A stretch of DNA of 64,000 nt from an uncultured archaeon (GCA_963799775.1 CAWCYD010000003.1:1-64000), one strand, 5' to 3'; numbered from the stretch's first letter, positions 22,342 to 39,197 are shown. Notes: generated by a model not told the origin, from the letters alone. Numbers and translations are program-made.

Positions 22342-22355
22342 CGGGACGTGGCGCA

Positions 22356-24507: not shown

Positions 24508-25107
24508 TTGAATCGCAACAAAAAGAAGACGATAGCCACAGGGATACTCGTCGCGACCTCGCTCGCGCTGTTGCTCGCTCCCGCGTCTCTGGCCGCTGCT
24601 CCCGCCCCCCAGGTCGGGACCACGACGGGACCGCACTCCATCTGGTGGGCGTCCTCGGTCTGGAACAACAGGATACCCGGGGACACGATCCGTTATCTCT
24701 TGCTTGTCTACAACGAGGATCCTGCTAATGCATCCATGACGCTGAAGACTCTGACGCTTCAGACCCCGTGGGGCAACTACAGCGACACCAGTCTGCCGTC
24801 GACTCTTTGTCCGAGCTGCAGATATGCCTGGGCCCAGTACCTCACCATCCCGACTTCGCAGCAAACTCCAGCCAACGTCACTTTCTACACCAGGCTCACC
24901 GGGAACTACGGCTCAGGGTCAGAGCTCTGCACTGACACCGGGAGTGTGTGCGAGGATGTGACCCCGGTCACCATCTCAGCGAACTCATCGTCTCTCCAAA
25001 GCACCCTCAACACCTACACCAATCTCTACCTACCGCTGGGGATTGCGATCCCGAGCCTCATCGCTGTGCTCTTCATCGCCCTCTACGTGAGAAAGCCTTC
25101 CCTCTAG
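24508..25107 (+). CDS. Secreted protein with C-terminal TM anchor
   Basis: Signal peptide (NRNKKKTIATGILV...), Cys pairs and C-terminal LPLGIAIPSLIAVLFIALYVRK. Confidence 0.7.
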   Translation: MNRNKKKTIATGILVATSLALLLAPASLAAAPAPQVGTTTGPHSIWWASSVWNNRIPGDTIRYLLLVYNEDPANASMTLKTLTLQTPWGNYSDTSLPSTLCPSCRYAWAQYLTIPTSQQTPANVTFYTRLTGNYGSGSELCTDTGSVCEDVTPVTISANSSSLQSTLNTYTNLYLPLGIAIPSLIAVLFIALYVRKPSL

Positions 25108-25164
25108 CCTTTGACTGACATCGGGTCGTCGGCGCCCCACCGATGACCCGGTTCACGACCGCCA

Positions 25165-26485
25165 TCACAGCCCGTAGGCAGAGGCATATCCCTTCAGCGC
25201 CTTCTTGAAGAGCTCGAGCGGCAGCGAGACGATCCCCGCCCCTATCTGTCCCACACCAGGTCTCTTGTGCGCGATCCCGGTATTCAGCTTGGGGGTGATC
25301 CCCGTCTCAAGCACCTTGCGTATGTCGATGCCGACCGGGGTCCCCCTCGAATCCAGATAGGGTATGCGGAAGTACTTGTGCTCGGCCTGGGTGATCCTGT
25401 ACATCTGTGTGGTGATATCCACGGCCGAGCTGACGCTCCCGCCAACCCATGAGACTATGGCAGGGGCTGCCGCCATCGCGAACCCACCGTACCCCGCCGT
25501 CTCTGTGATCGCGCTGTCTCCAATGTCAGGATTCGCATCTTCCTTGCCATAGCCCGGGAACCAAACGCCCGTGGGGACAGGAGCCGGGGACGTGTACCAC
25601 TCGTCCTTCGTCCCGCTCACCCAGATCCCAACATCGGTCCCGTTCCTCGAGATGGCAGAGACCACGGTGCTCTTCGTGACCTGATGGCCAGCCAGCGTCA
25701 TCGCCTTGGCCGCCGCCATGACCACGTTGAGCATGGTGAAGTTGTTCTCCCCTAGGAACCTCAAGGCCTCCGCCGCGTCCCTTCTTGCGCCCGTGGCGTT
25801 CACGATGTGCGGGCCAAGCTTCTCCACGAGCAAGGCTGTCGCGGCGTTGCACCTGTTGTGGCAGTCGTCACCCATCGTGAGCGCTTGGGCTATCATGGGC
25901 TTGAGTGATACTCCCCGCCCCTCGCTCTTTCGCAGGTCTCGCAGCGCTTCTTTCATTATCGGGGCGATGGACCTTCTCGATCCACCTCAACCGCTCGATG
26001 ACTTCTGGACCGAAAGCGCCGAACCTGAGCACCTTCCCTATCCCCTCGTTGAAGTTGGAGAAGGTAGACCTCCTTCCAGTGTCGCTGACCTCATACACGG
26101 GCATGCTGGGCGAGATCACGCCTGCCATGGGCCCGACAGCGTTGCGATGGTTGTTGCAGTCCAGTTCCACTTCGCCCGCCTCGACCATCGCTTGGGCTTC
26201 AGCTGTTTTGCGTGCCCAACCTTCGTAGATTATGGAGCCGATGACCGCCCCTCTCATTGGCCCGCTCATCCTCTCCCATGTCAAGGGTGGACCAGCGTGA
26301 AGCAAGGTCTTTCGCATCCCCGAGATTTTTTCCCTCGCCGCACCCACGTCGACGAGCGTCGGTTCCGAGTCCATCATGAGCCGGACGGCTTCTGAGTTCG
26401 CGCTCTCTACCTCCTCTTTGAAGCCTGGCAAGAGGACTCTTGCTCGCCGTGCGCGTTCTAATCTGATAAAAAGTGTTGCAACCAT
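25165..26485 (-). CDS. DUF1116 family protein (YlbE/AllG, YahG-like), paralog 1, frameshifted near 25960
   Basis: LLHAGPP, AVGPMAGVISPSMPV, NEGIGKVLRFGA, MGDDCHNR, RNG, DIGDSAITET and NTGIAHK.PGVGQIGAG. Confidence 0.9.
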
Positions 26486-26522
26486 GAGGGCCGAGTCAGC
26501 TTATTTCTCTCATATACCCAGC

Positions 26523-27973
26523 ATGCCGACGACGCCGTGGCAACGGATGGAGATACCTGCCCACCTCAAGCTCACCATACGAGAACTCGCTCCCCTGATC
26601 AGGGCCGGAGCGGTCTCCCCCGTCGAGCTGGTGGAGAGCCACCTGGGCTGGATAAAGCAGCTCGATCCGACCTTGAACGCGTTCATCTCAGTCCGCGAAC
26701 AGGAGGCTATCGCCGAGGCCAAAGCGTCGCAGCGCCTGCTCCGGCGAGGCGAGTATCTGGGCCCGCTGCACGGCGTGCCGATGGCGGTGAAGGACAACAT
26801 ATGGGTGGAGGGCACGAGATGCACGATGGGCTCGAAGGTGATGGCAGACTTCGTGCCGAAGAGGGACGCTGCCTGCGTCGCGAAGCTTCGAAGGGCGGGA
26901 GCGATTATAGTCGGAAAGACCAACACTCACGAGTTCGCCTCTGGCGTCACGAGCGTCAACCCCCACTACGGCCCGGTGAGGAACCCTTGGGACACTTCCA
27001 GGATGTCCGGCGGGTCGAGCGGCGGGTCTGCTGCCGCGGTCTCGTCATGCATGTCGACCGCTGCCATCGGCACGGAGACCACGGGCTCCGTGAGGATCCC
27101 CGCGAGCCTCTGCGGCCTCGTCGGACTCAAATCGAGCCTCGGGAGAGTGAGCACCTATGGCGTCTTCCCTCTCGCAAAGTCGATGGACTGCGTCGGAGCG
27201 CTGGCGAAGACCACATGGGACGCGGCGGTCGTCCTGAACGCGATGGCGGGCCACGACGACAGGGATAGCGGCACCTCCGGCACGCCCGAACCTTCCGACT
27301 ACGCGGCAGCCTCCGCGAAGCGGACGAAGAAGGAGCTCAAGGTCGGGATACCTCGAGACTACTTCCTGGACATCCTCGACCCAGAAGTAAGGCGGTCCTT
27401 CTTCAGGTTCGTGGAGAAGCTCTCGTCCATCGGGTCCTGACGGCAGACTTCGTCTTTCCGGACGTCTCGAAGGTCCAGGACATCTGGAGGCCGATAAGGT
27501 TCGCCGAGCCGGCCGCCGTCCACTACGACCTCTTCAGAGAGAGGCGGGCCGAATACGGCCAGGACGTCGCGCGGATGCTCGACGAAGGCCTGAAGGTCTC
27601 GGCTGCGACCTACATCCGCGCCCTTGGTGCGAGGGAGAAGATGCTCGCCGGCCTGACCAAGGCAATGAAAGGATTCGACGCCCTCGCCCTCCCGACCACC
27701 ATCTTGCCCGCGCCGAGGATTGAGGAGACGACCGTCACGGTGGGTGAAGATAAGATGGACGTATACATCGCCCTCGGACGACTCACTCTCGCGACGAGCG
27801 TGCTGGGACTTCCCAGCGTAAGCTTCCCGATAGGGCTCTCAAGCGGAGGGCTCCCCATGGGCGCACAGCTGGTGGGCCTGCCCTTCACCGAGGGCACGAT
27901 CCTCAGGATCGCCAGCCTCTACGAATCGAGCGTCGACGGGGGCTTCGCGTCCTTCACCCCGAGCTTTCGTTGA
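26523..27973 (+). CDS. Amidase-signature family enzyme (Ser-cisSer-Lys), frameshifted near 27440
   Basis: LHGVPMAVKDN, GKTNTHEFA, GGSSGGSAAAV and GTETTGSVRIPASLCG. Confidence 0.92.
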
Positions 27974-27976
27974 ACG

Positions 27977-28918
27977 TCACTTGGTTATCGACGTGCCGCT
28001 CTTCCCCTCAAGGGCCTGGATCGCGCTTCCGAGCTTCGCGATGACAGCGAGCGACCCGCCCCTCTCCACGAACCTGGTGCACGCGACCACCTTGGGTAGC
28101 ATGCTGCCCGAGAGGAACTGACCTTCGGCGGCCCACTTCTTTGCCTGCGCGACCGTCATCGTCGTGATGTCTGACTCGGTGGGCTTGCCGAAATCGTGTT
28201 TGACGTGGTCTATGTCGGTCAGGATGAGGAGGCCAGCGGCGTCGACGTCCTCGGCGACCCTCTCCGCGGCGAGGTCCTTGTCAATCACCGCGTCGACCCC
28301 TTCGAGCTCTCCTCTTTCGTTCAAGGCTACGGGGACGCCGCCCCCTCCGGAGCAGATCAGGGAGATGCCCGAGTCGACGAGCTGCCTGATCACCGCCGAC
28401 TCGACTATCCGGACTGGCTCAGGAGACGGCACCACGCGGCGGAAGGCCTTGCGCCCCGTCGGCTTCACCTTGACGACCGACATGCCCTTCGCTGCCAGCC
28501 TCTGGGCAGTCTCGGAGTCGTAGAAGCTGCCCACGGGCTTTGATGGAGCGCCGAACGCGGGGTCCTTGCGGTCGACGATGGTGTGCGTTATCACGGAGAT
28601 GACAGGGAAAGTCCTCGACTTTTCCGAGAGGAGGTCGATCATCGTCCGTTGGATCATCGAGCCGATCTCGCCCTGGGTCATCGCCCCTAGGAGGTGGAGC
28701 GGCTTCTCAGGGACCTGCTCTCTGGCCTCCTCCTGTTGGAGGAGCAGGTCCCCGACCTGGGGCCCGTTGCCGTGGGTTATGATCGGTTGGTGGCCGTGCT
28801 TGATCAGCTCGACCAGGTCCTTGCAGGCGACGCGGATGTTGCCCATCTGCGCTGCGTAGCCTCTGTCTCCCTCCTCAGACTCGAGCGCGTTGCCGCCGAG
28901 GGCGACGACCACCTTCAA
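27977..28918 (-). CDS. arcC: Carbamate kinase
   Basis: VVALGGNAL, THGNGPQVG, KPVG, RRVVPSPEP, GGGGVPV, AVIDKD and GSMLPKV. Confidence 0.96.
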   Translation of the reverse strand: MKVVVALGGNALESEEGDRGYAAQMGNIRVACKDLVELIKHGHQPIITHGNGPQVGDLLLQQEEAREQVPEKPLHLLGAMTQGEIGSMIQRTMIDLLSEKSRTFPVISVITHTIVDRKDPAFGAPSKPVGSFYDSETAQRLAAKGMSVVKVKPTGRKAFRRVVPSPEPVRIVESAVIRQLVDSGISLICSGGGGVPVALNERGELEGVDAVIDKDLAAERVAEDVDAAGLLILTDIDHVKHDFGKPTESDITTMTVAQAKKWAAEGQFLSGSMLPKVVACTRFVERGGSLAVIAKLGSAIQALEGKSGTSITK

Positions 28919-29003
28919 GATTTAGAATTCTCCGATTGGAAAATATAAGGTTTCAAGCGGAGAACCGCTAAATAGGTTCTAGGACAACGACGGCGGTCGC
29001 GTA

Positions 29004-30260
29004 GTGTCGTCCTCTCTCGGCTCTGAAATCGACAAGGCCAACGCGAAGGCGGTCGAGAAGGTAATCGCGGCCGAGGCAGTCCTCACCGAGATCAGCCCAG
29101 CCGGCAAGGTCATCCCCGGGTTCAAGTCAGACCTCGTCACGTACGCAGGTCCTCCGATCGCTTGGGAGAGGATGGTAAAGCCCCAGAAGCTCGCCATCAT
29201 GGGCGTGATGGTCCACGAAGGCCTCGCGAGCAGCCTGAAGGAGGCGGAGAAGAAGGCGAACAGGGGGGACGTCAGGCTGGAACACAATCACAAGTACGGG
29301 AACACGAGCGGGATGTGCGGGGTCACCTCGGCCTCCCTTCCCGTGATGGTCGTCATGAACAAGGTCAATGGGAACAAGGCCTACAACTGGCAGCAGGCTG
29401 ACCTGACCGCCTTTGGGGACGAGTACAAGAGGGCCATCAAGGAGATCGAGTTCGTCGAGAAGATACTCTCGCCTGTCATCACGGCCGCCCTGAAGGAGGC
29501 CGGCGGGTTCAACGTCAAGGACATGCTGGCGAAGGGTCTTGGGATGGGCGACGAGCTGCACGGCAACTTCGACGCCTGCCGGGGCGTCTTCCTGAACGCG
29601 ATGCTCCCTCACCTCGAGCGGACCGGCTTCTCGAAGAGCGTCCTTGCGAAGGTAGGAGACTACTTTGTCTCCAACCAGGGACGCTGGTATTGCGGCAACA
29701 TGATGATGGCCGCGTGCAAGGCGATGATGGACGTCGCGAGGGACACAAAGTACAGCACGGTCGTCGTGGCCATGGCGAGGAACGGGGTAGAGTTCGGCAT
29801 CCAGGTCAGCGGCTTGGGGAACGAATGGTTCACCGGCCCCGCCGGCGTCATCAAGGGTTTCGCCTTCCCCGGCTTCAAGGCGGAGGACTCGACGCTCGAC
29901 ATCGGCGACAGCGCGATATCGGAGACCCGCGGGCTCGGAGGGACGGCCTCCGCGGCGTCGCCCGGGCACTCGAGGTTCGTCGGCAAGAGCTGGAGCGACG
30001 TCCTCGCGCACACGGAGAAGATGCGCGAGGCATCCGTCTCGGAGGATCCCCTCTTCAGGATCCCATATCTCGATTTTCGTGGTGTCCCAGTGGGCCTGGA
30101 CATCCGGAAGGTCCTGGAGCTCCAAGCCCCGCCAAAGATCAACACGGCGATGTGCGACAAGGACGGAGGGCACGGGTTGATAGGGGCAGGTGCGGCGGAC
30201 GCGCCGCTCGAACCATTCAAGAAGGGCGTCAAGGCCTTTGTTGAGAAATACGGAAAGTGA
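29004..30260 (+). CDS. DUF1116 family protein, divergent paralog 2
   Basis: YAGPP, MGDELHGN, MARNG, DIGDSAISET and INTAM...IGAG. Confidence 0.88.
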   Translation: MSSSLGSEIDKANAKAVEKVIAAEAVLTEISPAGKVIPGFKSDLVTYAGPPIAWERMVKPQKLAIMGVMVHEGLASSLKEAEKKANRGDVRLEHNHKYGNTSGMCGVTSASLPVMVVMNKVNGNKAYNWQQADLTAFGDEYKRAIKEIEFVEKILSPVITAALKEAGGFNVKDMLAKGLGMGDELHGNFDACRGVFLNAMLPHLERTGFSKSVLAKVGDYFVSNQGRWYCGNMMMAACKAMMDVARDTKYSTVVVAMARNGVEFGIQVSGLGNEWFTGPAGVIKGFAFPGFKAEDSTLDIGDSAISETRGLGGTASAASPGHSRFVGKSWSDVLAHTEKMREASVSEDPLFRIPYLDFRGVPVGLDIRKVLELQAPPKINTAMCDKDGGHGLIGAGAADAPLEPFKKGVKAFVEKYGK

Positions 30261-30316
30261 ATTCAGGAGCCCGCGTCCGATGAGCTTCGGGGAGACCCTC
30301 TAGCTGGGGTTGCTGG

Positions 30317-31354
30317 ATGCAGGCTTCGTCTCGGCTGAGGGACTCTCTCTCCTACGTGCTGGGGGTGGTCGTCTCGCTTGCGATATTCTCGGTCATCCTG
30401 CTGTCTTTCGGGTACGAGCCGCTGCCCAACCTTGAGGGGCTCGTCACGGGGTCGTTCGGTTCTGTCTTCCTCGCCTCCGAGACTTTCGTCCTGATGGCCC
30501 CTCTGCTCCTGGCCGCTCTTGCCTTCCTCGTTCCCTTCAGGGCGAGATTCTACAACATAGGCGTCGAAGGTCAGATCTACGTTGGGGCGCTCGCGACCTA
30601 TCTGGCCGGGTCCCAGGTCGGGGGCCTGCCCAGCGCGCTGGCGATCCCTGTGGTCGTCCTCGCGGCTGCCGCCGGAGGGACGCTGTGGTTGGCCCTACCG
30701 CTCGTGATGAGGGTCAAGCTCAACGTCAACGAGATCTTTCCCACGCTCGTGATGAACTTCGTGGCAATCGACCTTGTGAACTGGCTCACAGCGGGCCCGA
30801 TAAAGGCCCCGGGCTCGGCGAACCTGGAGACGCCCTTCCTCCCGATCTCCACGTGGCTCCCTGTCGTCCCCGGGACCGAGGTCGACCTGGGGGTCTTCAT
30901 CGCAGCGGCAGCCGCCGTCATCGTCTACTTCGTGATCTACAGGACCGTCCTGGGCTTTGAGATCAGGGCGTCGGGGGCGAACCCTCGGGCAGCCAAGGGC
31001 GGGGGAATCGACGTCTCGAGGAGCATTCTCGTCGTGGGCGTGATGAGCGGCGCGCTGGCCGGTCTCGCCGGGATGGTCGTGGTCGCGGGCCAGGAGCATC
31101 TCCTCGCCCAGAACTTCTCGCCGGGGTATGGATACAACGGGATCTCTGTGTCCGCGCTTGGTGCCTTCCATCCCTTGGGCTCGGTCGTCTCCGCTGTGCT
31201 CTACTCTGCCCTCTGGATAGGCGGCGAAGGGCTCCAAAGAAGCTCCGAAGCCGTCCCGATCCAGCTCGTCTTCGCCCTCCAAGCGATCATCGTCCTCTCT
31301 GTGCTTGTCGTCAAGAAGGCGCTCGACGACAGGAGAAGCGGGGGTAGTCGCTGA
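30317..31354 (+). CDS. ABC transporter permease (nucleoside/BMP type)
   Basis: FYNIGVEGQ, NEI..TLVMN, G.EIRASGANP.AA and SGALAGLAG. Confidence 0.92.
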   Translation: MQASSRLRDSLSYVLGVVVSLAIFSVILLSFGYEPLPNLEGLVTGSFGSVFLASETFVLMAPLLLAALAFLVPFRARFYNIGVEGQIYVGALATYLAGSQVGGLPSALAIPVVVLAAAAGGTLWLALPLVMRVKLNVNEIFPTLVMNFVAIDLVNWLTAGPIKAPGSANLETPFLPISTWLPVVPGTEVDLGVFIAAAAAVIVYFVIYRTVLGFEIRASGANPRAAKGGGIDVSRSILVVGVMSGALAGLAGMVVVAGQEHLLAQNFSPGYGYNGISVSALGAFHPLGSVVSAVLYSALWIGGEGLQRSSEAVPIQLVFALQAIIVLSVLVVKKALDDRRSGGSR

Positions 31355-31357
31355 GCG

Positions 31358-32305
31358 ATGGCCATCGCATACCCGGAACTGGTTGTCTCCATCCTTGCCA
31401 CCAGTCTCACCCTGACGATGCCAATCCTCTACGCGTCGGTCGGGGAGGTCTACGCGGAGAGGTCCGGGGCCCTCAACATGAGCATCGAGGGTATCATGAC
31501 CCTTTCGGCCCTTGTCTCTCTGTGGGTCGCCTACTCGACCGGTTCCTATCTCGATGGGTTCCTCGCGGCCATGGGCGCGGCGGCTGCTGTCGGGCTCTTG
31601 TTTTCGTTCGTGACCGTCAAGGTAGGGATAAACCAGCTCATCGTGGGCCTGCTAATCTACAGCCTGGCGGGGGCCATCGCTGACTTCGGCTACCAGCTCC
31701 TGACCCAGAAGACCTTCCCCATAATCCACCCCATCCTTCCGATCCACATCTCCGGGCTCAGCGACCTGCCGGTCGTCGGACCGATCCTCTTCAGCCAGAA
31801 CTACCTGGTGTACGGCTCCTTCGCCGTCGCGCTGGTCCTCGGCCTTGTCTTGCACAAGACCACCTGGGGGCTCAAGATAAGGGCCGTGGGCGAGAACCCG
31901 GAGGCCGCCGACGCTGCCGGGATAAACGTGAACCTCGTGCGCCACCTTTGCGTGATTCTCGGAGCCGTCTTGGCGGGTGTCGCGGGCGCTTCCCTTGTCA
32001 TAGGCTACCTCGGTCTCTACAACGCGGGAGACACGCTGGTGGCGGGCCGTGGCTGGATTGCGATAGTGGTCGTCATCTTCGCGAGGTGGAGCCCCTACAA
32101 AGCGATCGCCGGAAGCTGGCTCTTTGGTCTCGGGTATGCGATAGCAGCCATATTCATCGGTTCGAACATCTTCTCCGCCCTTGGGGCAGGGACGGGCTAC
32201 TTCCTGCTGACCATTCCTTACATCTTCGCCATAGTCTTCATCCTTATCTTCCACAGAGGGACGAGACCGCCGTCTTCTCTTACGGTCCCTTACAAGCGAA
32301 AGTGA
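31358..32305 (+). CDS. ABC transporter permease (nucleoside/BMP type)
   Basis: ERSGALNMSIEG, RAVGENPEAADAAGINV and AGRGWIA. Confidence 0.92.
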   Translation: MAIAYPELVVSILATSLTLTMPILYASVGEVYAERSGALNMSIEGIMTLSALVSLWVAYSTGSYLDGFLAAMGAAAAVGLLFSFVTVKVGINQLIVGLLIYSLAGAIADFGYQLLTQKTFPIIHPILPIHISGLSDLPVVGPILFSQNYLVYGSFAVALVLGLVLHKTTWGLKIRAVGENPEAADAAGINVNLVRHLCVILGAVLAGVAGASLVIGYLGLYNAGDTLVAGRGWIAIVVVIFARWSPYKAIAGSWLFGLGYAIAAIFIGSNIFSALGAGTGYFLLTIPYIFAIVFILIFHRGTRPPSSLTVPYKRK

Positions 32306-32465
32306 CCCACCGTCTGACCAGTAATTTCTATCTGAAGTTTACACGTGGATGGTAATTTCTACGATTTACAGACAACCATTCTTATATTCTGAAACGAGCT
32401 TCATCGTTCTCACTCTTGAGAACCGCCTCCTGCACTTATATCCCTGCATCGGAGTTTGTTAAGCC

Positions 32466-33584
32466 ATGAGAACTGATCGGAGAGGAGTGTCAACTTCTGT
32501 AATAGCAGCAGTCGTAGTCGTAGTTCTGATTCTGGTCGTAGCAGCCGCGGTCTATTCGTCTTCGGGTTCCAAGACAGTCACGTCGACGATAACGACCGGC
32601 GCAGGCTCGTCTAGCTCGACTGTGACGACCTCAACCGCTCCGCAATCCAACATCAAGATGGCCGTCGTCCTAGGCGGTGACGCGACCGACGACGGATTCA
32701 ACGACAACGGGATTCAGGTAGCAAACTGGGTCCACGACACCTACGGCTGGAACGTCTCCATCTCTCAGGACGTCCAATACGCTGACCAGAACACGGTCAT
32801 TACCAGCTACGCCCAAGAAGGTTACAACGTCATCTGGACTGACGGCAACCAGTTCATCGGGGCCACCGAGGCAATTGCGGCCCAGTATCCCAAGGTCGAC
32901 TTCGTGATGACTCCGACCTACACGGGAGACAACGTCACGAAGAACCTAGTAGCTGTCAGCGCCGGCTATCAGGCCACAGGCTACTATCTTGCTGGCGTCC
33001 TCGCAGGCAAGATGACAAAGACCGGCGCCACTGGCGTCATACTCGGACAATGGGTGGCAGCAACGGCGCTCGAGTTCTACGCTTACGCTGCCGGGGTCAA
33101 CTCATCGAACCCGCAAGCTCAGGTCTACCTCACCGTCCCCGGGACTTGGTCCGACCCAACTATCGGTTACACGGATGCGACGACCATGATCAGCACCGAC
33201 CATGTGGACATCCTCGTTCCAATCGCTGACGCGACGGGTCGAGGCGTAATCGCCGCGGCCACTGTCGCCAATGCTACCCTCATAGGGACAGTAGAGGACC
33301 AAGTGGACCTGGCTCCTAGCAACATGATGACCAGCGTCTTGCTCAACACGACGGCGTTCATCCAGATGGTCGTCCAGCACGTCAACGCCGGCACCTTCAG
33401 CCAGATAGGGGGTCAGATCATCAACATGAACCTCGGCTATCTGTCTCCATACCACTCGTACTCGACCATAATCCCGACCTCAGTTCAGCAACTCGTCAAC
33501 CAGACAGCCGCCGGAATAAACTCCGGCAAGGTCAACGTCCCGTTCACCTACACAGCGAACCCACCAACGACACCGATGCCTTAG
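32466..33584 (+). CDS. BMP-family ABC substrate-binding protein
   Basis: Archaeal pilin-like signal (RRGVST...), Ser/Thr linker, D.GFN, YLAGVLAGKMTKTG and GTWSDP. Confidence 0.9.
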   Translation: MRTDRRGVSTSVIAAVVVVVLILVVAAAVYSSSGSKTVTSTITTGAGSSSSTVTTSTAPQSNIKMAVVLGGDATDDGFNDNGIQVANWVHDTYGWNVSISQDVQYADQNTVITSYAQEGYNVIWTDGNQFIGATEAIAAQYPKVDFVMTPTYTGDNVTKNLVAVSAGYQATGYYLAGVLAGKMTKTGATGVILGQWVAATALEFYAYAAGVNSSNPQAQVYLTVPGTWSDPTIGYTDATTMISTDHVDILVPIADATGRGVIAAATVANATLIGTVEDQVDLAPSNMMTSVLLNTTAFIQMVVQHVNAGTFSQIGGQIINMNLGYLSPYHSYSTIIPTSVQQLVNQTAAGINSGKVNVPFTYTANPPTTPMP

Positions 33585-33658
33585 CCTGATTCGAAGGGGC
33601 ACCTTTTTGGGGCATCTTCGTTCTCCACTTTGTTGCTCGGGATAATCGTTGCTGAACA

Positions 33659-35213
33659 GTGACCGTGAACACTGAATTGCAACCCGCCGCTTCGCCGACC
33701 CCGCTCGTCGAGATGAGGGGGATATCGAAGAATTTCGGCCGGGTCGTCGCGAACGACGCGGTCAATCTCAAGATCTATCCTGGAGAGGTGCACGCGCTGC
33801 TTGGCGAGAACGGGGCGGGCAAGACCACCCTCATGAACATCCTCTACGGCCTTTACAGGGCAGATTCTGGCGAGATCCTGATCCGCGGCAAACCGGTCTC
33901 TATCCGTTCTCCAAAGGACGCGATAGCCTCCAAGATAGCGATGGTCCACCAGCATTTCGAATTGGTCACGACACTGACGGTGGCGGAGAATATCGGTCTT
34001 GGACTGCGCGCTAGAAGGGAACCACTACTCGACCTCGGCACCGTCGCCCAAAGAACGAGCCAGCTCGCCAAAGAATACGGGCTGAGCGTAAATCCCGAGG
34101 CAAAAGTGGAGCAACTCTCTGTCGGAGAGAGACAGAGGGTGGAGATAATCAAGGCACTCTATCGCGACGCCGATGTCCTGATCCTAGACGAGCCGACGTC
34201 GGTCCTCACGCCCCAAGAAGCCGAAGGCCTCTTCAAGTTCATCAGGTCCATGGCAGCAGAGGGAAGGGCTGTCGTCGTCATCACACACAAGCTCCCCGAA
34301 GTGATGCAGGTGAGCGACAGGGTGACAGTTCTCCGCCACGGGGCGGTCGTCGCCGACCTGGACACCAGGCTCACGAACCCAGACGAACTTGCCGGGATGA
34401 TGGTCGGGAGGGAGCTTCACAGCGGCTCCAGTGGCGGGGCAACTTCACCCGAGGGCACGGAGGCCGTCCTAGAGTTCATCGACGTATCGGCCTACAACGA
34501 CAAGGGCTCGCTCGCCTTGGACCACATTTCTTTCGCGGTGCGCAGCGGCGAGATCCTGGGGATAGCGGGCGTGGCGGGGAACGGTCAGACCGAGCTAGAG
34601 GAGGTCTTGGCCGGGATGAGGCGTGTGAGAGGCGGGAAGATAACAATCAGGGGCAAAGACATGACCAATGCCTCCCCCCGCGAGTTCATAGAGATGGGAG
34701 TAGGTTGCATCCCAGAAGACAGGATGGGGACCGCGCTCGTCCTGGACATGTCGATAGCGGAGAACTTGATCCTGGAGACGAGGAACGACCCTCGATTCAA
34801 GTCTAGAGAGATGCTAAATTCTCAAGGCATCCGGGAGAACGCGACGAAAATCGTCGACCAGTATTCCATCGCATGTGGGAGCATAGACTCACCTGCAAGA
34901 ACCCTCTCTGGCGGAAACATGCAGAAGCTGGTCCTCGCCAAGCGTCCTATCCAGGGATCCGAGAGTCTTGGTCGCCGCTCAGCCAACAGCGGGCCTGGAC
35001 GTGGGAGCGGCAAACTTCATCACCGAGAAGCTGAGGGAGCAAAGGAGAAACGGCGTCGGCGTGCTCCTGATCTCGGGAGACCTGGCAGAGATCACCTCTC
35101 TCAGTGACCGGGTGGCTTGTATCTACGAGGGGAAGATAATGGGGATACTCCCCGCTGACAAGGCAGAGACGAAGGAGCTGGGACTCATGATGGGTGGAGT
35201 GGCCAGGCAATGA
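33659..35213 (+). CDS. ABC transporter ATP-binding protein (two NBDs), frameshifted near 34945
   Basis: GENGAGKT, LSVGERQRVEI, LDEPT, GVAGNGQ and LSGGNMQK. Confidence 0.93.
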
Positions 35214-36175
35214 TGCAAGGAGCACTGGATTCACAAGCGCTCACCCTCGACGCCCTCTCTATAGGGACCTCGGCCGAAGGGATGCTCCGAAAAGGGCGGG
35301 TCGGAAAGATACACAGCGTCTTCCCGCGTGCACTGAACGTGATCTCCGAGGTGGGGATGTTCTGCATCGTGAGAAGAGACGTAGGCGGCGGTCCCATGAA
35401 CGTCGTCGTCGCCCTCGAGAAGAGAGGGCTTGACGAGACGTGCTCCCCTGGCATGGACGTTCGCAACGACGCAGGCGTCCTCAACATAGGCGCAGGCGCC
35501 CTGTCCATCCGTCTGAACACAGCACACCGTCATCCGAAGAAGAGCGCGCGAAGAGTCCTGCTCGGGCCTCTAGCGATAACAAGGAACCTGGCGATCCTTG
35601 CAGACCAGATCTCCTCAGCGGGAGACCCCGAAGGCCTGGGTGGACTACTGCCCTTTCTGAAGGGCAGCACAGATGCGATTGGCCGCGACCTAGGCGTGAG
35701 CCGGGCCGGGGCGATGGCACTGGGGCCATTGTCGTCGCTCGTCAGAGCGCTCGTCACGGGTCAAGCTCAGAGCGTGGGCAAGGCCGCACGCGGTCTTATC
35801 GGCTTGGGTCCGGGACTCACCCCCGCAGCGGACGACCTGCTGGCGGGTTTGATGATAGCCTTTCAGCACACGGCAAATGCTCTCGAAGACGACGATGACC
35901 CGTTCGTGAGAGACTCCAACCTTACCATCTCGTTGATGGCAGAAGGAAGAACAACGTTGCTCAGCAAGGAATTCCTCTTGAATGCAGCCCAAGGGCTAGG
36001 AAGCGAGCACGTCGAGGCGTTGGTCGGCGCTGTGCTCTTCGGGAGCGCGAAGGAGGTCGAACGCGCCGCGCTCAAGGAGATCGCCGTGGGCGCCACTTCC
36101 GGGACGGATACGGCTCTCGGCGTCTATCTGGGTGTGGGAATCGGCTTGGACAGGCATCGGAGGCGGCGGCAGTGA
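35210..36175 (+). CDS. DUF2877 family protein (YlbF/AllH, YahE-like)
   Basis: HSVF, LIGLGPGLTPAADDLLAG, TT.LS and GATSGTD. Confidence 0.9.
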   Translation: MMQGALDSQALTLDALSIGTSAEGMLRKGRVGKIHSVFPRALNVISEVGMFCIVRRDVGGGPMNVVVALEKRGLDETCSPGMDVRNDAGVLNIGAGALSIRLNTAHRHPKKSARRVLLGPLAITRNLAILADQISSAGDPEGLGGLLPFLKGSTDAIGRDLGVSRAGAMALGPLSSLVRALVTGQAQSVGKAARGLIGLGPGLTPAADDLLAGLMIAFQHTANALEDDDDPFVRDSNLTISLMAEGRTTLLSKEFLLNAAQGLGSEHVEALVGAVLFGSAKEVERAALKEIAVGATSGTDTALGVYLGVGIGLDRHRRRRQ

Positions 36176-37980
36176 GCTTGAGACAGGTCGTAGTGGAGAA
36201 AGGGAGTTACAGAGACTCGATCACCCTCATGAAGATCTCGAATGAGGTAGCCGTGCTGAAGGGGATCAAGCAAGCCGCAGCTGCGATGGCGACTCCACTC
36301 AACAAGCGCCTTCTTGGAGACATCGGATTCAAGGGGAAGGAAGTCCAAGAAGCGGCGCCTGAAGACCTCATCCTCGCGGTCGAAGCAGAGGATTCCTCCA
36401 GCCTCAAGGCCGGGATGCAGAGAATCCAGGAGCTTCTCGAGGCCAAAGATACGGCCCCACACGAGGCGAACGCGGTGATGCCCACGACCTTGGACGAGGC
36501 CCTGGCGCAGATGAAGGACGCCAACCTGGCGCTCATCTCGGTCCCCGGCGAGTTCGCGGGAAGAGAGGCCTCGAGGGCATTGGAGAGGGGATTGAACGTG
36601 TTCCTGTTCAGCAGCAATGTGCCCGTCGAAAAGGAGGTCGAGCTGAAGAAGAGCGCAGCCGAGAAGGGGCTTCTGATGATGGGACCTGACTGCGGGACCG
36701 CTATCGTAAACGGGATCGTCCTAGGGTTCGGAAACGTTGTGAAGGGCGGCTCAGTGGGACTCATCTCTGCCTCTGGGACCGGTCTTCAGCAGGTCTCGAC
36801 CCTCGTCGACGAGGCGGGCTTGGGAGTCTCGCAAGCAATCGGGACAGGCGGGAGGGGCACTGTCTGACGAGGTCGGCGCGGCGACGACCATCCAAGCATT
36901 GAGACTCCTTGCCTCGGACCCGAAGACAAAGACGATCGTCATGATCTCGAAACCCCCGGCCGAGAAGACGATGGCCAAGGTTCCTCGTTAACGCTGGAAA
37001 GGCGGGGAAGCCGGTCGTCATCAACTTTCTTGGAGGGAAGCCGGATTCAGTGCCCAAGAACGCCACCGTGGCGTCAACCCTGGAGGAAGCAGCGATTATC
37101 GCTAGCTACATGAGCTCTCAAAAGTCTCAGCTTGCCTTGACCATCGCAAGGGCGCGGAAGGAAGCGCCCGTACTGGCCGCCAAAGAAGCTGCAGAGCTCT
37201 CGCCCTCGCAGAGGTTCGTAAGGGGCCTCTTCTCGGGTGGTACGCTATGCTACGAGGCGCAAGTGGTCATGCGCCCGATCCTGGGAGACATCGCCTCGAA
37301 TGCCCCTCTCTCGTCCGACTCGAAGCTCAAGAGCGCCGATAGGAGCGTGGGGCACACGTGCGTCGACCTTGGGGCCGAGGAGTTCGTAGTTGGCCGCGCC
37401 CACCCGATGATGGACTACACGGTGCGCAAACTGCGAATACTCCAAGAAGCTAGGGACTCTGGCACAGCGGTAATCCTGTTGGACGTCGTTCTCGGTTACG
37501 GCTCGAACCCCGACCCTGCCGGACAGCTCATTCCCGCCATCAAGGAAGCGTTCTCCATCGCTTCCAAGACAAGAAGAAAGCTATGTTTCGTGGCAAGCAT
37601 CGTCGGGACGGAGGGGGCACCCGCAGCGTATCGAGGAGCAGTCAAGGCGGTTGACGGAGGCTGGGGTGACTCTGCTTCCGACCAACGCCCAGGCGTCCCT
37701 CCTCTCCGCGCTCATCGCCACAAGAGGCAAAGGGGCCGAACGCGTCGAATCTGACTCCAGGTCTTTCGCGGCCGAGCCCTCTCAGCAGAGGTCCGGTTCC
37801 ACTCTGGGGCCTGCGCCCAAGTCCAGCCTGCTCGGAAGACCACTGAAGGTTATCAACTTGGGTGTTGGGACATTCGCCGATGACCTCAGGACCCAGAACG
37901 TCCCCGTTCTCAGCGTCGACTGGAGGCCTCCAGCCGGAGGAGACGTCGAAGTGATGGACCTTCTTGACAAGCTCCGATGA
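36172..37980 (+). CDS. fdrA: FdrA family protein (AllF/YahF-like), several frameshifts
   Basis: YRDSITLM, ISVPG, MMGPDCGTA, SASGTGLQ, GTGGR, RGLFSGGTLCYEA, GRAHPM and DVVLGYG, plus C-terminal DWRPPAGG. Confidence 0.9.
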
Positions 37981-38885
37981 GAAAGGCCCTGCATTCACGA
38001 TCTAGAGGCATGAGTCAAGTGCGACGCACGCGAATGAAGACGGTCCCGAGAGACCAGCAGGGCCGTTCTGAAGTCTCGGCCCGCCTTGAGCGGGACTACA
38101 CGGATTTCAAGAAGTCTCGGACTTTCCGCTTCCCCGAGTGGCTCTACGGCAAACCGAAAGGGAAGATCATCGCCCTGAGGGTGGAAGACTGTCCTCGTCC
38201 CGGGGAGACGGCATACTTGGAGATGGACTCGGGGAGGACAGCTTTCCTTAGCGTTGACATGCAGACAGACTTCTGTGGCCCCGGTGGCTACGTCGAGGTA
38301 ATGGGCTACGACCTTCGTCTCACCGCGGCTCCAATACCGCGGATTTCAGCCATGATGGGATACCTGCGAAAAGAGACGGACGTCAAGATAATCCACACGA
38401 GGGAGGGCCACGTCCCAGACCTTGCCGACGCCCCCTACAACAAGCTGCTGAGGAGCAAGGTCGTAGGAGATGGCGTAGGCATAGGCGACGTCCCTCCCAA
38501 GGGGATGGGGAGGCTGCTCGTAAGAGGACAGGAGAACTGGGAGATCGTCGACGCGCTCCGCCCTAGACCAGGGGAGGCCGTGATTGACAAGCCCACTAAG
38601 GGAGCCTTCGGCTCCAGCTCCATCGAGACGGTGCTGGCAGATTCAGACATCAGATACCTCATCATCGGCGGAGTGACGACCGACGTCTGCGTCCACAGCG
38701 TGATGAGGGAGGCGAACGACAGAGGATATTGGTGTGTCCTCCTGAAGGACTGCACCGCTGCGACGGACAGAGGAAACTATCTGGCTGCCATCAAGCAGAT
38801 CAAGATGTCAGGAGGGATTTTCGGCTGGGTGTCGGATTCGAAGGAGTTCATCCGCGCAGCCAAGCGCGCGTTCGCGTCGTCCTGA
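37977..38885 (+). CDS. Isochorismatase-family cysteine hydrolase, biuret hydrolase (BiuH)-like (true start probably 38010-38034)
   Basis: DMQTDFCGPGGYV..MGYDL, HTREGH.PDLAD, IDKPTKGAF, TTDVCV..MREANDRGY and KMSGGIFG. Confidence 0.82.
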   Translation: MRKALHSRSRGMSQVRRTRMKTVPRDQQGRSEVSARLERDYTDFKKSRTFRFPEWLYGKPKGKIIALRVEDCPRPGETAYLEMDSGRTAFLSVDMQTDFCGPGGYVEVMGYDLRLTAAPIPRISAMMGYLRKETDVKIIHTREGHVPDLADAPYNKLLRSKVVGDGVGIGDVPPKGMGRLLVRGQENWEIVDALRPRPGEAVIDKPTKGAFGSSSIETVLADSDIRYLIIGGVTTDVCVHSVMREANDRGYWCVLLKDCTAATDRGNYLAAIKQIKMSGGIFGWVSDSKEFIRAAKRAFASS

Positions 38886-39197
38886 CTCGCTCTTCACATC
38901 CTCTCTTGCATCAGCCTGCAATTGGGGCGAAATGGGAGAAGCGCCGCTAATTTCACCGAAATCGAAGCGGTCAACGGCTCCGGAGATTCGGGTCAGCGCC
39001 CCTTAGCGAGCTTCCCAGAGTCTGACTTCCAGGCGTCCAAACAGCCGATTGATGGAATAAACAACAATTCCAACTCGCGAATCCAAGATAATTCCCGAAT
39101 TCCAATCAAAAACGAAGGAATTCCAATTCCACGAACCGCGTCTAGATTAGCGGTCACAGACCAACCTGAAACCCAGGAAAGGGGGTGAAACTGACAC

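What the first reader, a model, noticed from the sequence alone, without database searches (positions are those of the whole stretch)
25165..38885. Archaeal AllFGH/carbamate-kinase cluster linked to a biuret-hydrolase-like enzyme, an amidase and a BMP transporter: candidate undescribed ATP-yielding ureide pathway
Seen: FdrA, DUF2877, two DUF1116 genes, carbamate kinase, an amidase, a cysteine hydrolase and a BMP ABC system within ~14 kb. Known: in E. coli FdrA-YlbE-YlbF (AllFGH) form oxamic transcarbamylase, making carbamoyl phosphate from oxalurate, and the adjacent carbamate kinase turns it into ATP. No ureidoglycolate dehydrogenase or allantoate amidohydrolase is in this cluster. Inference: the archaeon imports a ureide or N-heterocycle (biuret/triuret/allophanate-like, or a purine/pyrimidine product) and cleaves it by phosphorolysis for substrate-level ATP and ammonia. 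The substrate may differ from the E. coli one.
Basis: partly seen in the sequence, partly recalled or inferred. Interest (0 to 1): 0.78.

Follow-up and report, generated by a model that had tools for sequence, protein, structure and literature searches.

The report
Archaeal carbamoyl-compound breakdown gene cluster
A soil archaeon that does not oxidise ammonia carries a transporter, two amide-cutting enzymes, an E. coli-like three-part carbamoyl-transfer enzyme and a carbamate kinase side by side, a gene set already reported in 2025 in its ammonia-oxidising relatives and still untested at the bench.

Summary
Six frameshifts break four of the eleven genes. Short contigs of a public run correct the only one they call, so the breaks are probably assembly errors.

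The host is a Nitrososphaerales archaeon in which AmoA was not found. The conserved core is allG, a BMP-type ABC importer, allH and allF, usually followed by carbamate kinase. It occurs in 6 of 22 other genomes of the genus. The biuH-like gene, the amidase and a second allG are additions in this genome.

The same gene set occurs in ammonia-oxidising relatives and in two Dehalococcoidia MAGs, as one run of genes on a single strand in one of them. It was published for ammonia oxidisers in 2025 (PMC12625717), so it is not undescribed.

Carbamoyl phosphate formation followed by ATP and ammonia release is the likeliest chemistry: 33 of 35 AllG-positive genomes also hold carbamate kinase. The substrate is open. 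No allantoin genes were found. The archaeal proteins are no closer to E. coli AllFGH than to its uncharacterised paralogues YahEFG.

The parts
25165..26485 (-). allG1, a second DUF1116/AllG paralogue, read in two frames because of one frameshift near 25919-25968
   Evidence: PF06545: 166.3 bits (profile 79-215) and 81.4 bits (profile 1-71). E. coli AllG aligns over residues 5-169 and 155-418 of 419 in two frames. It falls in a 100-supported clade with a Desulfurococcales MAG and other families of the class. The best database hit is 76% identical and is an intact 422-aa protein.
26376..27973 (+). Amidase-signature hydrolase (gatA-like / AtzE-like). The likely start is the Met at 26550. There is one frameshift at about 27431.
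   Evidence: PF01425: 317.7 and 52.3 bits in two ORFs. A contig of run X1 carries one extra G after 27431. With that base the frame reads 474 aa and aligns over 7-461 with the 480-aa G271 amidase at 46% identity. The intact G271 relative scores best against the AtzE family, 374.6 bits against a cut-off of 461.
27977..28918 (-). Carbamate kinase (allK/arcC type), transcribed divergently from allG2 across an 85-bp spacer
   Evidence: TIGR00746 363.4 bits against a cut-off of 358.25. It is the only carbamate kinase found in the genome by tblastn. It is 44-46% identical to the carbamate kinases of the genus relatives and of the ammonia oxidisers alike.
29004..30260 (+). allG2, the genus-typical DUF1116/AllG and first gene of the long plus-strand gene run
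   Evidence: PF06545 194.8 bits over the full profile. It is 60-63% identical to genus relatives and 36% to E. coli AllG against 39% to YahG.
30317..31354 (+). ABC permease (nupB-like)
   Evidence: PF02653 115.9 bits; 70-74% identical in relatives.
31358..32305 (+). ABC permease (nupC-like)
   Evidence: PF02653 106.2 bits; 73-75% identical in relatives.
32466..33584 (+). BMP/PnrA-family substrate-binding protein with an N-terminal membrane anchor and a Ser/Thr-rich linker
   Evidence: PF02608 142.5 bits; sequence. Solved relatives bind varied ligands and include an 'atrazine periplasmic binding protein', 6pi5.
33659..35210 (+). ABC ATPase with two ABC domains and one frameshift near 34943
   Evidence: PF00005 172.4 bits. 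The G013 ATPase aligns over 8-418 in frame 2 and 419-506 in frame 3.
35210..36175 (+). allH (DUF2877)
   Evidence: PF11392 79.5 bits. It is the only copy found in the genome. Its end overlaps the allF start by 4 nt.
36172..37980 (+). allF (FdrA-like) with three frameshifts, near 36841, 36990 and 37615, each beside a run of 4-5 G. The roughly 50-aa C-terminal tail is fused here.
   Evidence: NF004760 pieces cover profile 4-230, 225-271, 277-468 and 455-554. The G013 protein aligns in frames 1, 2, 3, 1. The TGA stop overlaps the ATG of the next gene.
37977..38885 (+). biuH-like cysteine hydrolase. Its start codon overlaps the allF stop (ATGA).
   Evidence: PF00857 104.6 bits. BiuH equivalog 266.3 bits against a cut-off of 370. 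Solved BiuH 6azo scores 232 bits, a 'cysteine hydrolase' 6xix 161 bits and RutB 87 bits. It is 62-65% identical to the clade of the ammonia oxidisers. Asp, Lys, Lys and Cys are kept. The Gln215 position reads Ser.

Best explanation
The locus is a catabolic island for small carbamoyl or ureido nitrogen compounds. The host is a Nitrososphaerales archaeon in which the ammonia monooxygenase gene was not found.

Shown:
- A run of eight plus-strand genes (allG2, two permeases, BMP binding protein, ATPase, allH, allF, biuH-like) with short gaps and two 4-nt overlaps.
- A divergently transcribed carbamate kinase, a gatA/AtzE-like amidase and a second allG paralogue beside it.
- The core (allG, importer, allH, allF, usually carbamate kinase) is the conserved unit of the genus. 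The two hydrolases and allG1 are accessory.

Inferred:
1. The BMP-type importer brings in a stable N-carbamoyl compound. Oxalurate is the first candidate, only because it is the substrate of the single characterised family member.
2. The AllF-AllG-AllH complex transfers the carbamoyl group to phosphate.
3. Carbamate kinase turns carbamoyl phosphate plus ADP into ATP, ammonia and CO2.
4. The biuH-like hydrolase and the amidase remove further amide nitrogens from related compounds (biuret or triuret type, or oxamate). They either feed the core or finish its product.

The frameshifts are most likely assembly errors, so the genes are intact in the organism.
For: - Gene identities.
- Operon signs: the allH end overlaps the allF start, and the allF stop overlaps the biuH start.
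- Core conservation: PF06545 in 6 of 22 other genus genomes. The order is the same in 5 of 5 loci examined, with carbamate kinase after allF in 4 of 5. The ORFs are intact in G013 and G018. The same order occurs in G334 and in a named Nitrososphaerales MAG, L094.
- Link to carbamate kinase in the class sample: 33 of 35 AllG-positive genomes have it, against 25 of 266 AllG-negative ones.
- Accessory status: no close biuH relative in 22 of 22 other genus genomes. In the class sample AllG occurs without biuH in 29 of 35 genomes, and biuH without AllG in 5 of 11.
- Recurrence of the full set: G271 has biuH, amidase, BMP, permeases and ATPase next to allF, allH, carbamate kinase and allG. Dehalococcoidia L103 has ATPase, two permeases, biuH, amidase, allH, allG, allF and carbamate kinase on one strand; a 1.4-kb gap sits where L120 has its BMP gene. 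L120 has the transporter with BMP, both hydrolases and allG.
- E. coli AllFGH is a purified oxalurate/oxamate carbamoyltransferase encoded in one operon with a catabolic carbamate kinase (PMC11326118: abstract and discussion read).
- Assembly errors: two indel calls from run X1 sit exactly at two frameshifts, 23126 and 27431. The second restores a 474-aa amidase. The three allF breaks lie beside G runs. The assembly has 3 contigs but only 81.67% completeness. Few-contig relatives show the same breakage.
Against: - No activity has been measured for any archaeal member.
- Membership of the oxalurate-specific group is not shown. Archaeal AllF, AllG and carbamate kinase score equally or better against E. 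coli YahF, YahG and YahI, whose function is unknown. In the tree E. coli AllG groups only with one Clostridium row.
- No gene that would make oxalurate was found, so oxalurate would have to come from outside the cell.
- BMP-family proteins are best known as nucleoside binders. The ligand here is unknown.
- Five of the six cluster frameshifts received no call from run X1. The bins holding them had mean depth 0 to 0.7, so those breaks are not individually shown to be errors. X1 may also be the source sample.
- The biuH-like protein reads Ser where BiuH and TrtA need a glutamine.
- Related genomes are not independent, so the co-occurrence counts overstate the support.
Confidence: 0.6

Rival explanations
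1. One integrated pathway with a new substrate. The AllFGH-type complex does not use oxalurate. It phosphorolyses the product of the neighbouring hydrolases: allophanate made from biuret by the biuH-like enzyme, or from carboxybiuret through the AtzE-like amidase. It thereby replaces allophanate hydrolase (AtzF) and yields ATP. The two AllG paralogues could give one AllF-AllH pair two specificities.
For: - allF and biuH are translationally coupled here.
- The two hydrolases sit next to allH/allG on one strand in two Dehalococcoidia MAGs. A biuH-like gene lies within 10 kb of allG in 8 of 80 loci from several phyla.
- The amidase relative scores best against AtzE, 374.6 bits, not against allophanate hydrolase, 239.6 bits.
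- PMC12625717 states that ammonia-oxidising archaea with biuH have no co-located atzF.
- Two AllG but a single AllH and a single AllF were found in this genome. No other genome among the 301 of the class sample or the 41 relatives showed two AllG genes.
Against: - The core occurs without biuH in 29 of 35 AllG-positive genomes. biuH occurs without AllG in 5 of 11. Neither needs the other.
- Allophanate is an unlikely imported nutrient for the many genomes that have only the core plus importer. This is my own chemical reasoning, not a tool result.
- No enzyme of this family is known to act on allophanate.
Confidence: 0.25
2. Other chemistry. The BMP-type importer takes up nucleosides as in bacteria, and the FdrA-like protein acts as an acyl-CoA-synthetase-type enzyme. 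Or the carbamate kinase works towards carbamoyl phosphate for biosynthesis. In either case the cluster is not an ATP-yielding ureide pathway.
For: - FdrA carries CoA-ligase-type domains (PF00549; succinyl-CoA ligase alpha matches).
- Solved BMP relatives include nucleoside-binding lipoproteins such as 2fqw. The nucleoside-binding role of 2fqw is recalled, not shown by a call.
- pyrC and pyrD lie 9-12 kb upstream.
Against: - The E. coli homologues, once annotated the same way, proved to be a carbamoyltransferase (PMC11326118).
- AllG and carbamate kinase co-occur in 33 of 35 genomes.
- No nucleoside phosphorylase, nucleoside hydrolase or pyrimidine-ring-opening gene was seen in the cluster.
Confidence: 0.1
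3. A decaying relic. The frameshifts are real, and the cluster is being lost in this lineage after insertion-sequence activity nearby.
For: - Six frameshifts in 13.7 kb.
- Transposase genes lie on both sides, at 21073-22341 and 39854-40705.
- Five of the six frameshifts were not resolved by the reads.
Against: - The two frameshifts that drew an indel call are both corrected by the short contigs.
- Housekeeping genes in the window (ACD, pyrD) are broken in the same way.
- There are no nonsense codons or deletions, and each broken gene aligns over its full length.
- The allF breaks sit at G runs.
- Completeness is low for a 3-contig assembly.
Confidence: 0.05

Closest known systems
biuH / gatA-like amidase / allFGHK / bmpA-nupABC clusters of ammonia-oxidising archaea and comammox Nitrospira (PMC12625717, mSystems 2025)
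   Same: The same six components. The biuH-like protein is 62-65% identical and the amidase about 46-51% identical to those of ammonia-oxidising genomes. The paper also lists allFGHK plus bmpA-nupABC in one Nitrososphaerales MAG that is not an ammonia oxidiser.
   Different: - The host is a different, non-ammonia-oxidising genus.
- The importer sits inside the allG...allH-allF run rather than beside it.
- There is a second allG.
- The carbamate kinase is a plain 313-aa protein, whereas genus g44 has a 636-aa kinase with a Bmp domain inserted.
- codB, purE and FAH genes accompany the G271 cluster; none was seen among the ORFs of 20-42 kb scanned here.
- The paper reads the cluster as two separate pathways that supply ammonia for nitrification.
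E. coli AllF-AllG-AllH oxamic transcarbamylase with AllK carbamate kinase (PMC11326118)
   Same: Three-subunit family set plus a carbamate kinase. Identities are 36-41% (AllF), 36% (AllG2), 43-46% (AllG1), 28% (AllH) and 40% (AllK), over nearly full length.
   Different: - No allB, allC, allD or allE genes.
- Gene order differs, and an importer is embedded.
- No specific tree affinity to E. coli AllG.
E. coli YahE-YahF-YahG-YahI-YahJ (uncharacterised paralogous cluster)
   Same: The same families. Scores are equal or higher than against the All proteins. For the intact G013 allF: YahF 393 bits against AllF 271. For AllG2: YahG 288 against AllG 241. For the carbamate kinase: YahI 201 against AllK 164. 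The DUF2877-then-FdrA order is shared. A hydrolase gene (yahJ) is attached.
   Different: YahG sits in its own Pseudomonadota/Bacillota clade, away from both archaeal clades. YahJ is an amidohydrolase-family protein, not an isochorismatase or an amidase-signature enzyme.
Biuret hydrolase BiuH and triuret hydrolase TrtA (PMC5806882, PMC7948467)
   Same: Isochorismatase-like cysteine hydrolase. It is closest to solved BiuH at 232 bits. Asp36, Lys142, Lys145, Cys175, Phe41 and Tyr47 equivalents are kept.
   Different: - Below the NCBIfam BiuH cut-off.
- An N-terminal extension of about 80 aa is shared with the clade of the ammonia oxidisers.
- The Gln215 equivalent reads Ser, against Gln in 10 of 10 homologues from ammonia oxidisers and 8 of 9 allG-linked homologues; the ninth, L135, is gapped there.
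Arginine deiminase / agmatine deiminase pathways
   Same: The same logic: a ureido compound is cleaved by phosphate to carbamoyl phosphate, and carbamate kinase then makes ATP. This is established knowledge, recalled. Two genus relatives carry an ADI-family gene just upstream of allG.
   Different: The carbamoyltransferase here belongs to the unrelated three-subunit FdrA/DUF1116/DUF2877 type.

Membership tests
AllFGH-type three-subunit carbamoyltransferase (Pfam/NCBIfam families) | DUF1116/AllG domain above the Pfam cut-off | tested here: met
   194.8 bits (allG2); 166.3 and 81.4 bits (allG1 pieces); cut-off 27.
AllFGH-type three-subunit carbamoyltransferase (Pfam/NCBIfam families) | DUF2877/AllH domain above the cut-off | tested here: met
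   79.5 bits against a cut-off of 25.
AllFGH-type three-subunit carbamoyltransferase (Pfam/NCBIfam families) | FdrA (NF004760) above the cut-off of 433 bits | tested here: inconclusive
   The window copy is in pieces of 235.8, 131.9, 49.8 and 34 bits. Intact genus relatives reach 464.8, 458.2 and 437.5 bits and 438.3 bits.
Oxamic transcarbamylase proper (orthologue of E. coli AllFGH acting on oxalurate) | Closer to E. coli AllF/AllG/AllH than to the paralogous YahF/YahG/YahE | tested here: not met
   Bit scores are equal or higher against the Yah proteins. In a 103-row tree both archaeal AllG clades are separate from E. coli AllG and from YahG. The tree is unrooted, and its loci were chosen by likeness to the archaeal query.
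Oxamic transcarbamylase proper (orthologue of E. coli AllFGH acting on oxalurate) | Genomic link to the allantoin genes allB, allC, allD, allE | tested here: not met
   PF02615 matched 0 of 5 genomes. TIGR03176 had no hit in G000. The TIGR03178 hit at 16188-17507 is dihydroorotase, lying next to pyrD. Among 52 allG loci of 15 kb or more, E. coli AllB, AllC, AllD and AllE found 0, 1, 0 and 0.
Oxamic transcarbamylase proper (orthologue of E. coli AllFGH acting on oxalurate) | Carbamoyl phosphate formation from oxalurate | not testable with these tools
   Needs an enzyme assay.
Catabolic carbamate kinase | TIGR00746 equivalog cut-off, and adjacency to a carbamoyl-phosphate-forming enzyme | tested here: met
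   363.4 bits against 358.25. It is divergent from allG2 across 85 bp. Carbamate kinase is present in 33 of 35 AllG-positive genomes.
Biuret hydrolase BiuH | NCBIfam equivalog NF050097 cut-off of 370 bits | tested here: not met
   266.3 bits. The G271 homologue also scores below it, at 280.1 bits.
Biuret hydrolase BiuH | Catalytic Asp-Lys-Cys triad and the substrate lysine Lys145 | tested here: met
   D94, K205, K208 and C238 align with chain positions 56, 162, 165 and 195 of 6azo. I took these as Asp36, Lys142, Lys145 and Cys175 by subtracting the 20-residue tag described in PMC5806882.
Biuret hydrolase BiuH | Gln215, which binds the distal amide and is also needed in TrtA as Gln202 | tested here: not met
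   It reads Ser278, codon TCA. Gln is present in 10 of 10 homologues from ammonia oxidisers and 8 of 9 allG-linked homologues. Caveat: one inserted T plus one lost G in a G run would turn CAG-GGA into TCA-GGA, so an assembly error is possible.
AtzE / AtzF / GatA amidases | NCBIfam cut-offs (AtzE 461, allophanate hydrolase 511, GatA 481) | tested here: not met
   Window pieces: AtzE 250.4 + 55.6, GatA 259 + 46.5. Intact G271 relative: AtzE 374.6, GatA 341.5, allophanate hydrolase (TIGR02713) 227.5. The amidase-signature domain itself is met.
BMP/PnrA-type ABC importer | Bmp binding protein, two BPD_transp_2 permeases and a double ABC ATPase in one gene run | tested here: met
   The ligand was not tested.

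The most novel reading that the evidence does not exclude
The FdrA/DUF1116/DUF2877 complexes of the Nitrososphaerales-Chloroflexota clade are not oxalurate enzymes. They are phosphorolytic 'allophanate-type' carbamoyltransferases. Together with a BiuH-like hydrolase and an AtzE-like amidase they turn biuret, triuret or cyanuric-acid-derived compounds into carbamoyl phosphate and hence ATP, in place of the hydrolytic AtzF step. The two AllG paralogues would give this archaeon two substrate specificities on one AllF-AllH scaffold.
Probability: 0.22. Interest if true: 0.75.

Novelty: new member of a known kind. Interest (0 to 1): 0.4.

Why it matters
Only one member of the FdrA/DUF1116/DUF2877 family has a measured activity. 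Yet the family matched at least 597 stretches of the species-level genome collection, and the loci examined almost never have allantoin genes beside them.

This locus, the published clusters of the ammonia oxidisers and the Dehalococcoidia loci found here point to one concrete experiment. Test which carbamoyl compound (oxalurate, allophanate, or a biuret or triuret product) gives carbamoyl phosphate.

The answer would show whether soil archaea gain ATP as well as ammonia from fertiliser impurities and purine oxidation products. It would also show whether the 'allFGH = oxalurate' label now spreading through annotations is safe. For this window on its own, the result is mainly a correction: the cluster is real, is already described in relatives, and looks broken only because of assembly errors.

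Tried and rejected
- Allantoinase. TIGR03178 hit 16188-17507 just above its cut-off. NCBIfam shows equal dihydroorotase scores, and pyrD is the next gene. I rejected it as an allantoin gene.
- Urease. Not found in G000 or three genus relatives; found in G271.
- First AmoA search. The control genomes could not ring, so I repeated it with G271 as a positive control.
- RNA elements. Rfam at gathering threshold over the whole window gave only one tRNA.
- Flanking ORFs 24208-25107, 38922-39188 and 39198-39632. No Pfam family matched. The first is a conserved surface or membrane protein that also lies downstream of ACD in G018, so it is not part of the pathway.
- An AtzG-like or GatC-like partner of the amidase. 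No candidate was seen. The 120-aa ORF before the G271 amidase has no Pfam family.
- Runs X2 and X3. They matched only short conserved stretches at 90-95% likeness with many loose ends, and they are other organisms. I did not use them.
- Run X1 gave no call at five of the six cluster frameshifts (bin depths 0 to 0.7). This is no evidence either way.
- The BMP ligand cannot be read from sequence matches to solved structures.
- I ran no fold, complex, atlas or representative-library search. None would have settled the substrate.
- Supplements of PMC12625717 (Figs S9-S16) were not available. They may show the gene map of the non-ammonia-oxidising MAG and the trees for the amidase and biuH, and may overlap with what I report.

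Full report
WHAT IS THERE

The window is the first 64 kb of the largest of three contigs of a 2.47-Mb genome. That genome is 59% G+C and 81.67% complete by marker genes.

In map order:

| Coordinates | Strand | Gene | Note |
|---|---|---|---|
| 25165-26485 | - | allG1 (DUF1116) | two ORFs |
| 26376-27973 | + | amidase-signature enzyme | two ORFs; likely start 26550 |
| 27977-28918 | - | carbamate kinase | TIGR00746 363.4 bits, cut-off 358.25 |
| 29004-30260 | + | allG2 | intact |
| 30317-31354 | + | permease | |
| 31358-32305 | + | permease | |
| 32466-33584 | + | BMP-family binding protein | |
| 33659-35210 | + | ABC ATPase | one frameshift |
| 35210-36175 | + | allH (DUF2877) | |
| 36172-37980 | + | allF (FdrA-like) | three frameshifts |
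| 37977-38885 | + | BiuH-like cysteine hydrolase | |

The allH end overlaps the allF start by 4 nt. The allF TGA overlaps the ATG of the hydrolase gene. The last three genes of this plus-strand run are therefore packed as an operon.

Transposase-type genes flank the region at 21073-22341 (IS605 OrfB/TnpB type) and 39854-40705 (DDE_3).

THE BREAKS

I used intact proteins of a short-read relative (G013) and of E. coli as probes. The cluster holds six frameshifts and no internal stop:
- one in allG1, near 25919-25968;
- one in the amidase, near 27431;
- one in the ATPase, near 34943;
- three in allF, near 36841, 36990 and 37615, each beside a run of 4-5 G.

Upstream housekeeping genes are broken in the same way: the ADP-forming acetyl-CoA synthetase (two shifts) and pyrD (one).

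One public soil run, X1, holds 29% of the sampled words of 25100-29000. Its short contigs differ from the window by only three indels:
- one base left out at 23126, exactly at an ACD frameshift;
- one G put in after 27431, exactly at the amidase frameshift;
- one base at 33601, in a spacer next to several mismatches near a contig end.

With the extra G the amidase reads as one 474-aa frame. It aligns over residues 7-461 with the 480-aa amidase of G271.

The other five cluster frameshifts lie in bins of mean depth 0 to 0.7 and drew no call. X1 may also be the source sample.

Two further points fit the same reading. Completeness is low for a three-contig assembly. Other few-contig genomes of the genus show the same kind of breakage (L014, L015). 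I read the frameshifts as assembly errors with about 85% confidence.

THE HOST

- Named database relatives of allG2 are 'Nitrososphaerales archaeon' MAGs.
- A relative's flanks carry archaeal aRF1-type and PheRS genes.
- The genome holds many cupredoxin genes.
- Archaeal AmoA was found in G271, the positive control. It was not found in G000 or in three other genomes of the genus, one of them a single contig at 95% completeness.

The host is therefore a Nitrososphaerales lineage in which ammonia oxidation genes were not found.

CORE AND ACCESSORY PARTS

PF06545 matches 6 of 22 other genomes of the genus. All five loci long enough to read have the order allG, permease, permease, BMP, ATPase, allH, allF. 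Carbamate kinase follows directly in four of them. None has an amidase or isochorismatase hit in 20 kb.

The ORFs are intact in G013 and G018. The same order is seen in G334 (another genus of the family) and in a named Nitrososphaerales MAG, L094.

A close relative of the biuH-like gene was found in none of the 22 other genus genomes. The only hit there is 28% identical. The amidase has 50-53% relatives in only four of the 40 other relatives searched. The remaining hits are GatA-like at about 36-46%.

The carbamate kinase of G000 is only 44-46% identical to those of its genus relatives, whereas the transporter proteins are 65-75% identical.

ACD and the gene after it are syntenic with G018. 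There, an ADI-family gene and others occupy the place of allG1, amidase and carbamate kinase.

The region 25165-28918 and the terminal biuH-like gene are therefore additions to a conserved core, at a variable spot of the chromosome.

WIDER DISTRIBUTION

Three searches of a class sample of 301 genomes gave identical family sizes, so I treat them as the same sample:
- AllG matches 35 genomes.
- Carbamate kinase matches 58.
- The close biuH clade matches 11.

33 of 35 AllG-positive genomes have carbamate kinase, against 25 of 266 AllG-negative ones. 6 of 11 biuH-positive genomes have AllG, and 29 of 35 AllG-positive genomes lack biuH. Related genomes are not independent, so these are descriptions, not tests.

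In G271, a complete ammonia-oxidiser genome of genus g44, about 25 kb hold these genes in order:
- FAH, a citrate-type transporter, biuH, a codB-like permease, purE and the amidase;
- BMP, two permeases and the ATPase;
- then, divergently, allF, a 59-aa tail ORF, allH, carbamate kinase and allG.

A scan of the species-level genome collection found at least 597 AllG-encoding stretches. The best 80, chosen by likeness to the archaeal query, were fetched. Among the 52 loci of 15 kb or more, tblastn (E up to 1e-8, at least half of the query covered) found:

| Query | Loci with a hit, of 52 |
|---|---|
| FdrA | 51 |
| carbamate kinase | 20 |
| ABC ATPase of this type | 10 |
| biuH-like | 6 (8 of all 80) |
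| amidase | 6 |
| BMP | 2 |
| E. coli AllB / AllC / AllD / AllE | 0 / 1 / 0 / 0 |

Two Dehalococcoidia MAGs carry nearly the whole set:
- L103 has ATPase, two permeases, biuH, amidase, allH, allG, allF and carbamate kinase on one strand.
- L120 has the transporter with BMP, both hydrolases and allG.

A Nitrospira contig (L155) has allH, allF, allG, carbamate kinase, permeases and two biuH/trtA-like genes.

RELATION TO THE CHARACTERISED ENZYME

E. coli AllF-AllG-AllH was purified and shown to interconvert oxalurate plus phosphate with oxamate plus carbamoyl phosphate. Its genes form an operon with a catabolic carbamate kinase, next to allECD (PMC11326118; abstract and discussion read).

E. coli K-12 also carries the uncharacterised paralogues yahE (DUF2877), yahF, yahG (DUF1116), yahI (carbamate-kinase-like) and yahJ (amidohydrolase).

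The archaeal proteins are about as far from one set as from the other:

| Archaeal protein | vs All protein | vs Yah protein |
|---|---|---|
| allG2 | AllG 36% (241 bits) | YahG 39% (288 bits) |
| allG1 | AllG 43-46% | YahG 38-46% |
| intact G013 allF | AllF 271 bits | YahF 393 bits |
| carbamate kinase | AllK 164 bits | YahI 201 bits |
| allH | AllH 28% | YahE 24% |

I built a quick maximum-likelihood tree of 103 DUF1116 rows. One hundred loci were tried and one was dropped because its alignment was under 350 aa. The tree is unrooted. It shows:
- allG2 and its genus relatives form a 100-supported clade. That clade joins the clade of the ammonia oxidisers and a Chloroflexota clade with support 98.
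- allG1 sits in a separate 100-supported clade with a Desulfurococcales MAG and other families of the class.
- E. coli AllG groups only with one Clostridium row.
- YahG sits in a Pseudomonadota/Bacillota clade.

Family membership is therefore secure. Orthology to the oxalurate enzyme is not.

THE TWO HYDROLASES

The cysteine hydrolase is closest to solved BiuH (232 bits). A 'cysteine hydrolase' 6xix scores 161 bits and RutB 87 bits. It keeps the catalytic Asp, Lys and Cys, plus Lys145, Phe41 and Tyr47.

Its N-terminal extension of about 80 aa is shared with the clade of the ammonia oxidisers, as the 2025 paper also notes.

The glutamine that binds the distal amide in BiuH (Gln215) and in TrtA (Gln202) reads Ser here (PMC5806882 and PMC7948467, passages read). 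It is Gln in 10 of 10 homologues from ammonia oxidisers and in 8 of 9 allG-linked homologues of other phyla. The ninth, L135, is gapped there. The codons ATG-TCA-GGA could arise from ATG-CAG-GGA by one inserted T and one lost G. I give this difference little weight.

The amidase belongs to the clade the paper calls 'gatA-like'. Its intact G271 relative scores best against the AtzE family (374.6 bits, cut-off 461). GatA follows at 341.5 and allophanate hydrolase at 239.6.

PRIOR DESCRIPTION

PMC12625717 (abstract, section 8 part 1 and find passages read; supplements not available) reports the following:
- biuH with a neighbouring gatA-like amidase, bmpA-nupABC and often allFGHK in ammonia-oxidising archaea;
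- the same together with atzF and trtA in comammox bacteria;
- allFGHK plus bmpA-nupABC in one non-ammonia-oxidising Nitrososphaerales MAG of family JACPRH01;
- no upstream purine genes in the ammonia-oxidising archaeal MAGs.

The paper proposes biuret or triuret degradation through allophanate, with the amidase as allophanate hydrolase, and separate oxalurate degradation by AllFGHK.

Two literature searches found no other paper that links these genes in archaea.

HOW IT MOST LIKELY WORKS

Shown:
- gene content, gene order and packing;
- conservation of the core;
- co-occurrence with carbamate kinase;
- recurrence of the full set in distant lineages.

Inferred:
- import of a stable N-carbamoyl compound;
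- transfer of its carbamoyl group to phosphate by the AllFGH-type complex;
- ATP, ammonia and CO2 from carbamate kinase;
- extra amide hydrolysis by the two accessory enzymes.

In a host without ammonia oxidation the gain would be nitrogen and some ATP, not fuel for nitrification.

Oxalurate is the default substrate only by analogy. An integrated route in which the complex acts on allophanate or another hydrolase product stays open, and I put it at about one in four.

VERDICT

Novelty: a new member of a recently described kind of cluster, in a new host lineage, with a second allG and an embedded importer. Interest is moderate, and it rests on the untested substrate question rather than on this locus.

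Noticed in passing
L046:7411-9321 (G271); also L054 and L055: In ammonia-oxidiser genomes of genus g44, the carbamate kinase next to allG is one 636-aa ORF. A Bmp (PnrA-like) domain of 184 bits, in two stretches, is inserted inside the amino-acid-kinase domain. It could be a built-in ligand sensor for the pathway's substrate.
   Followed up: partly
L046:6164-6343; window 37825-37974; L011:17724-17867: The last roughly 50 residues of E. coli FdrA match the first roughly 55 residues of E. coli YahG. In G271 this segment is a separate 59-aa ORF after a TGATGA double stop. In G018, G011 and G013 it lies in a different frame or ORF from the body of allF. In this window it is fused in frame to allF.
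   Followed up: partly
L011:7614-8918 (G018) and L014:10571-11876 (G011): An arginine-deiminase-family gene (PF02274, 120 bits) lies directly upstream of allG in two genus relatives, where G000 has allG1, amidase and carbamate kinase. This hints that guanidino compounds may also feed carbamoyl phosphate formation there.
   Followed up: no
L103:1182-13270 and L120:2796-11236 (Dehalococcoidia MAGs): Bacterial loci carry the transporter, biuH-like gene, amidase and allG on one strand. L103 continues with allH, allF and carbamate kinase, and L120 also has the BMP gene. Their AllG proteins fall in the sister clade of the Nitrososphaerales AllG proteins.
   Followed up: partly
window 38808-38810: The codon at the BiuH Gln215 position reads TCA (Ser). 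Close homologues have Gln. The difference could be a compensated pair of indel errors.
   Followed up: partly
window 22329-24368 and 17558-18578: The ADP-forming acetyl-CoA synthetase (two frameshifts) and quinone-dependent dihydroorotate dehydrogenase (one frameshift) are broken like the cluster genes. That makes about nine frameshifts in 22 kb.
   Followed up: partly
window 53799-55679: A 626-aa ORF joins a NADH-quinone oxidoreductase 20-kDa subunit domain (PF01058, two stretches) with an intein and a LAGLIDADG homing endonuclease domain. This looks like an intein inside NuoB.
   Followed up: no
window 21073-22341 and 39854-40705: An IS605 OrfB/TnpB-type gene and a DDE_3 (IS630-like) transposase gene lie on either side of the region.
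   Followed up: no
window 51620-51694: A single tRNA gene on the minus strand is the only Rfam match in the window at gathering threshold.
   Followed up: no
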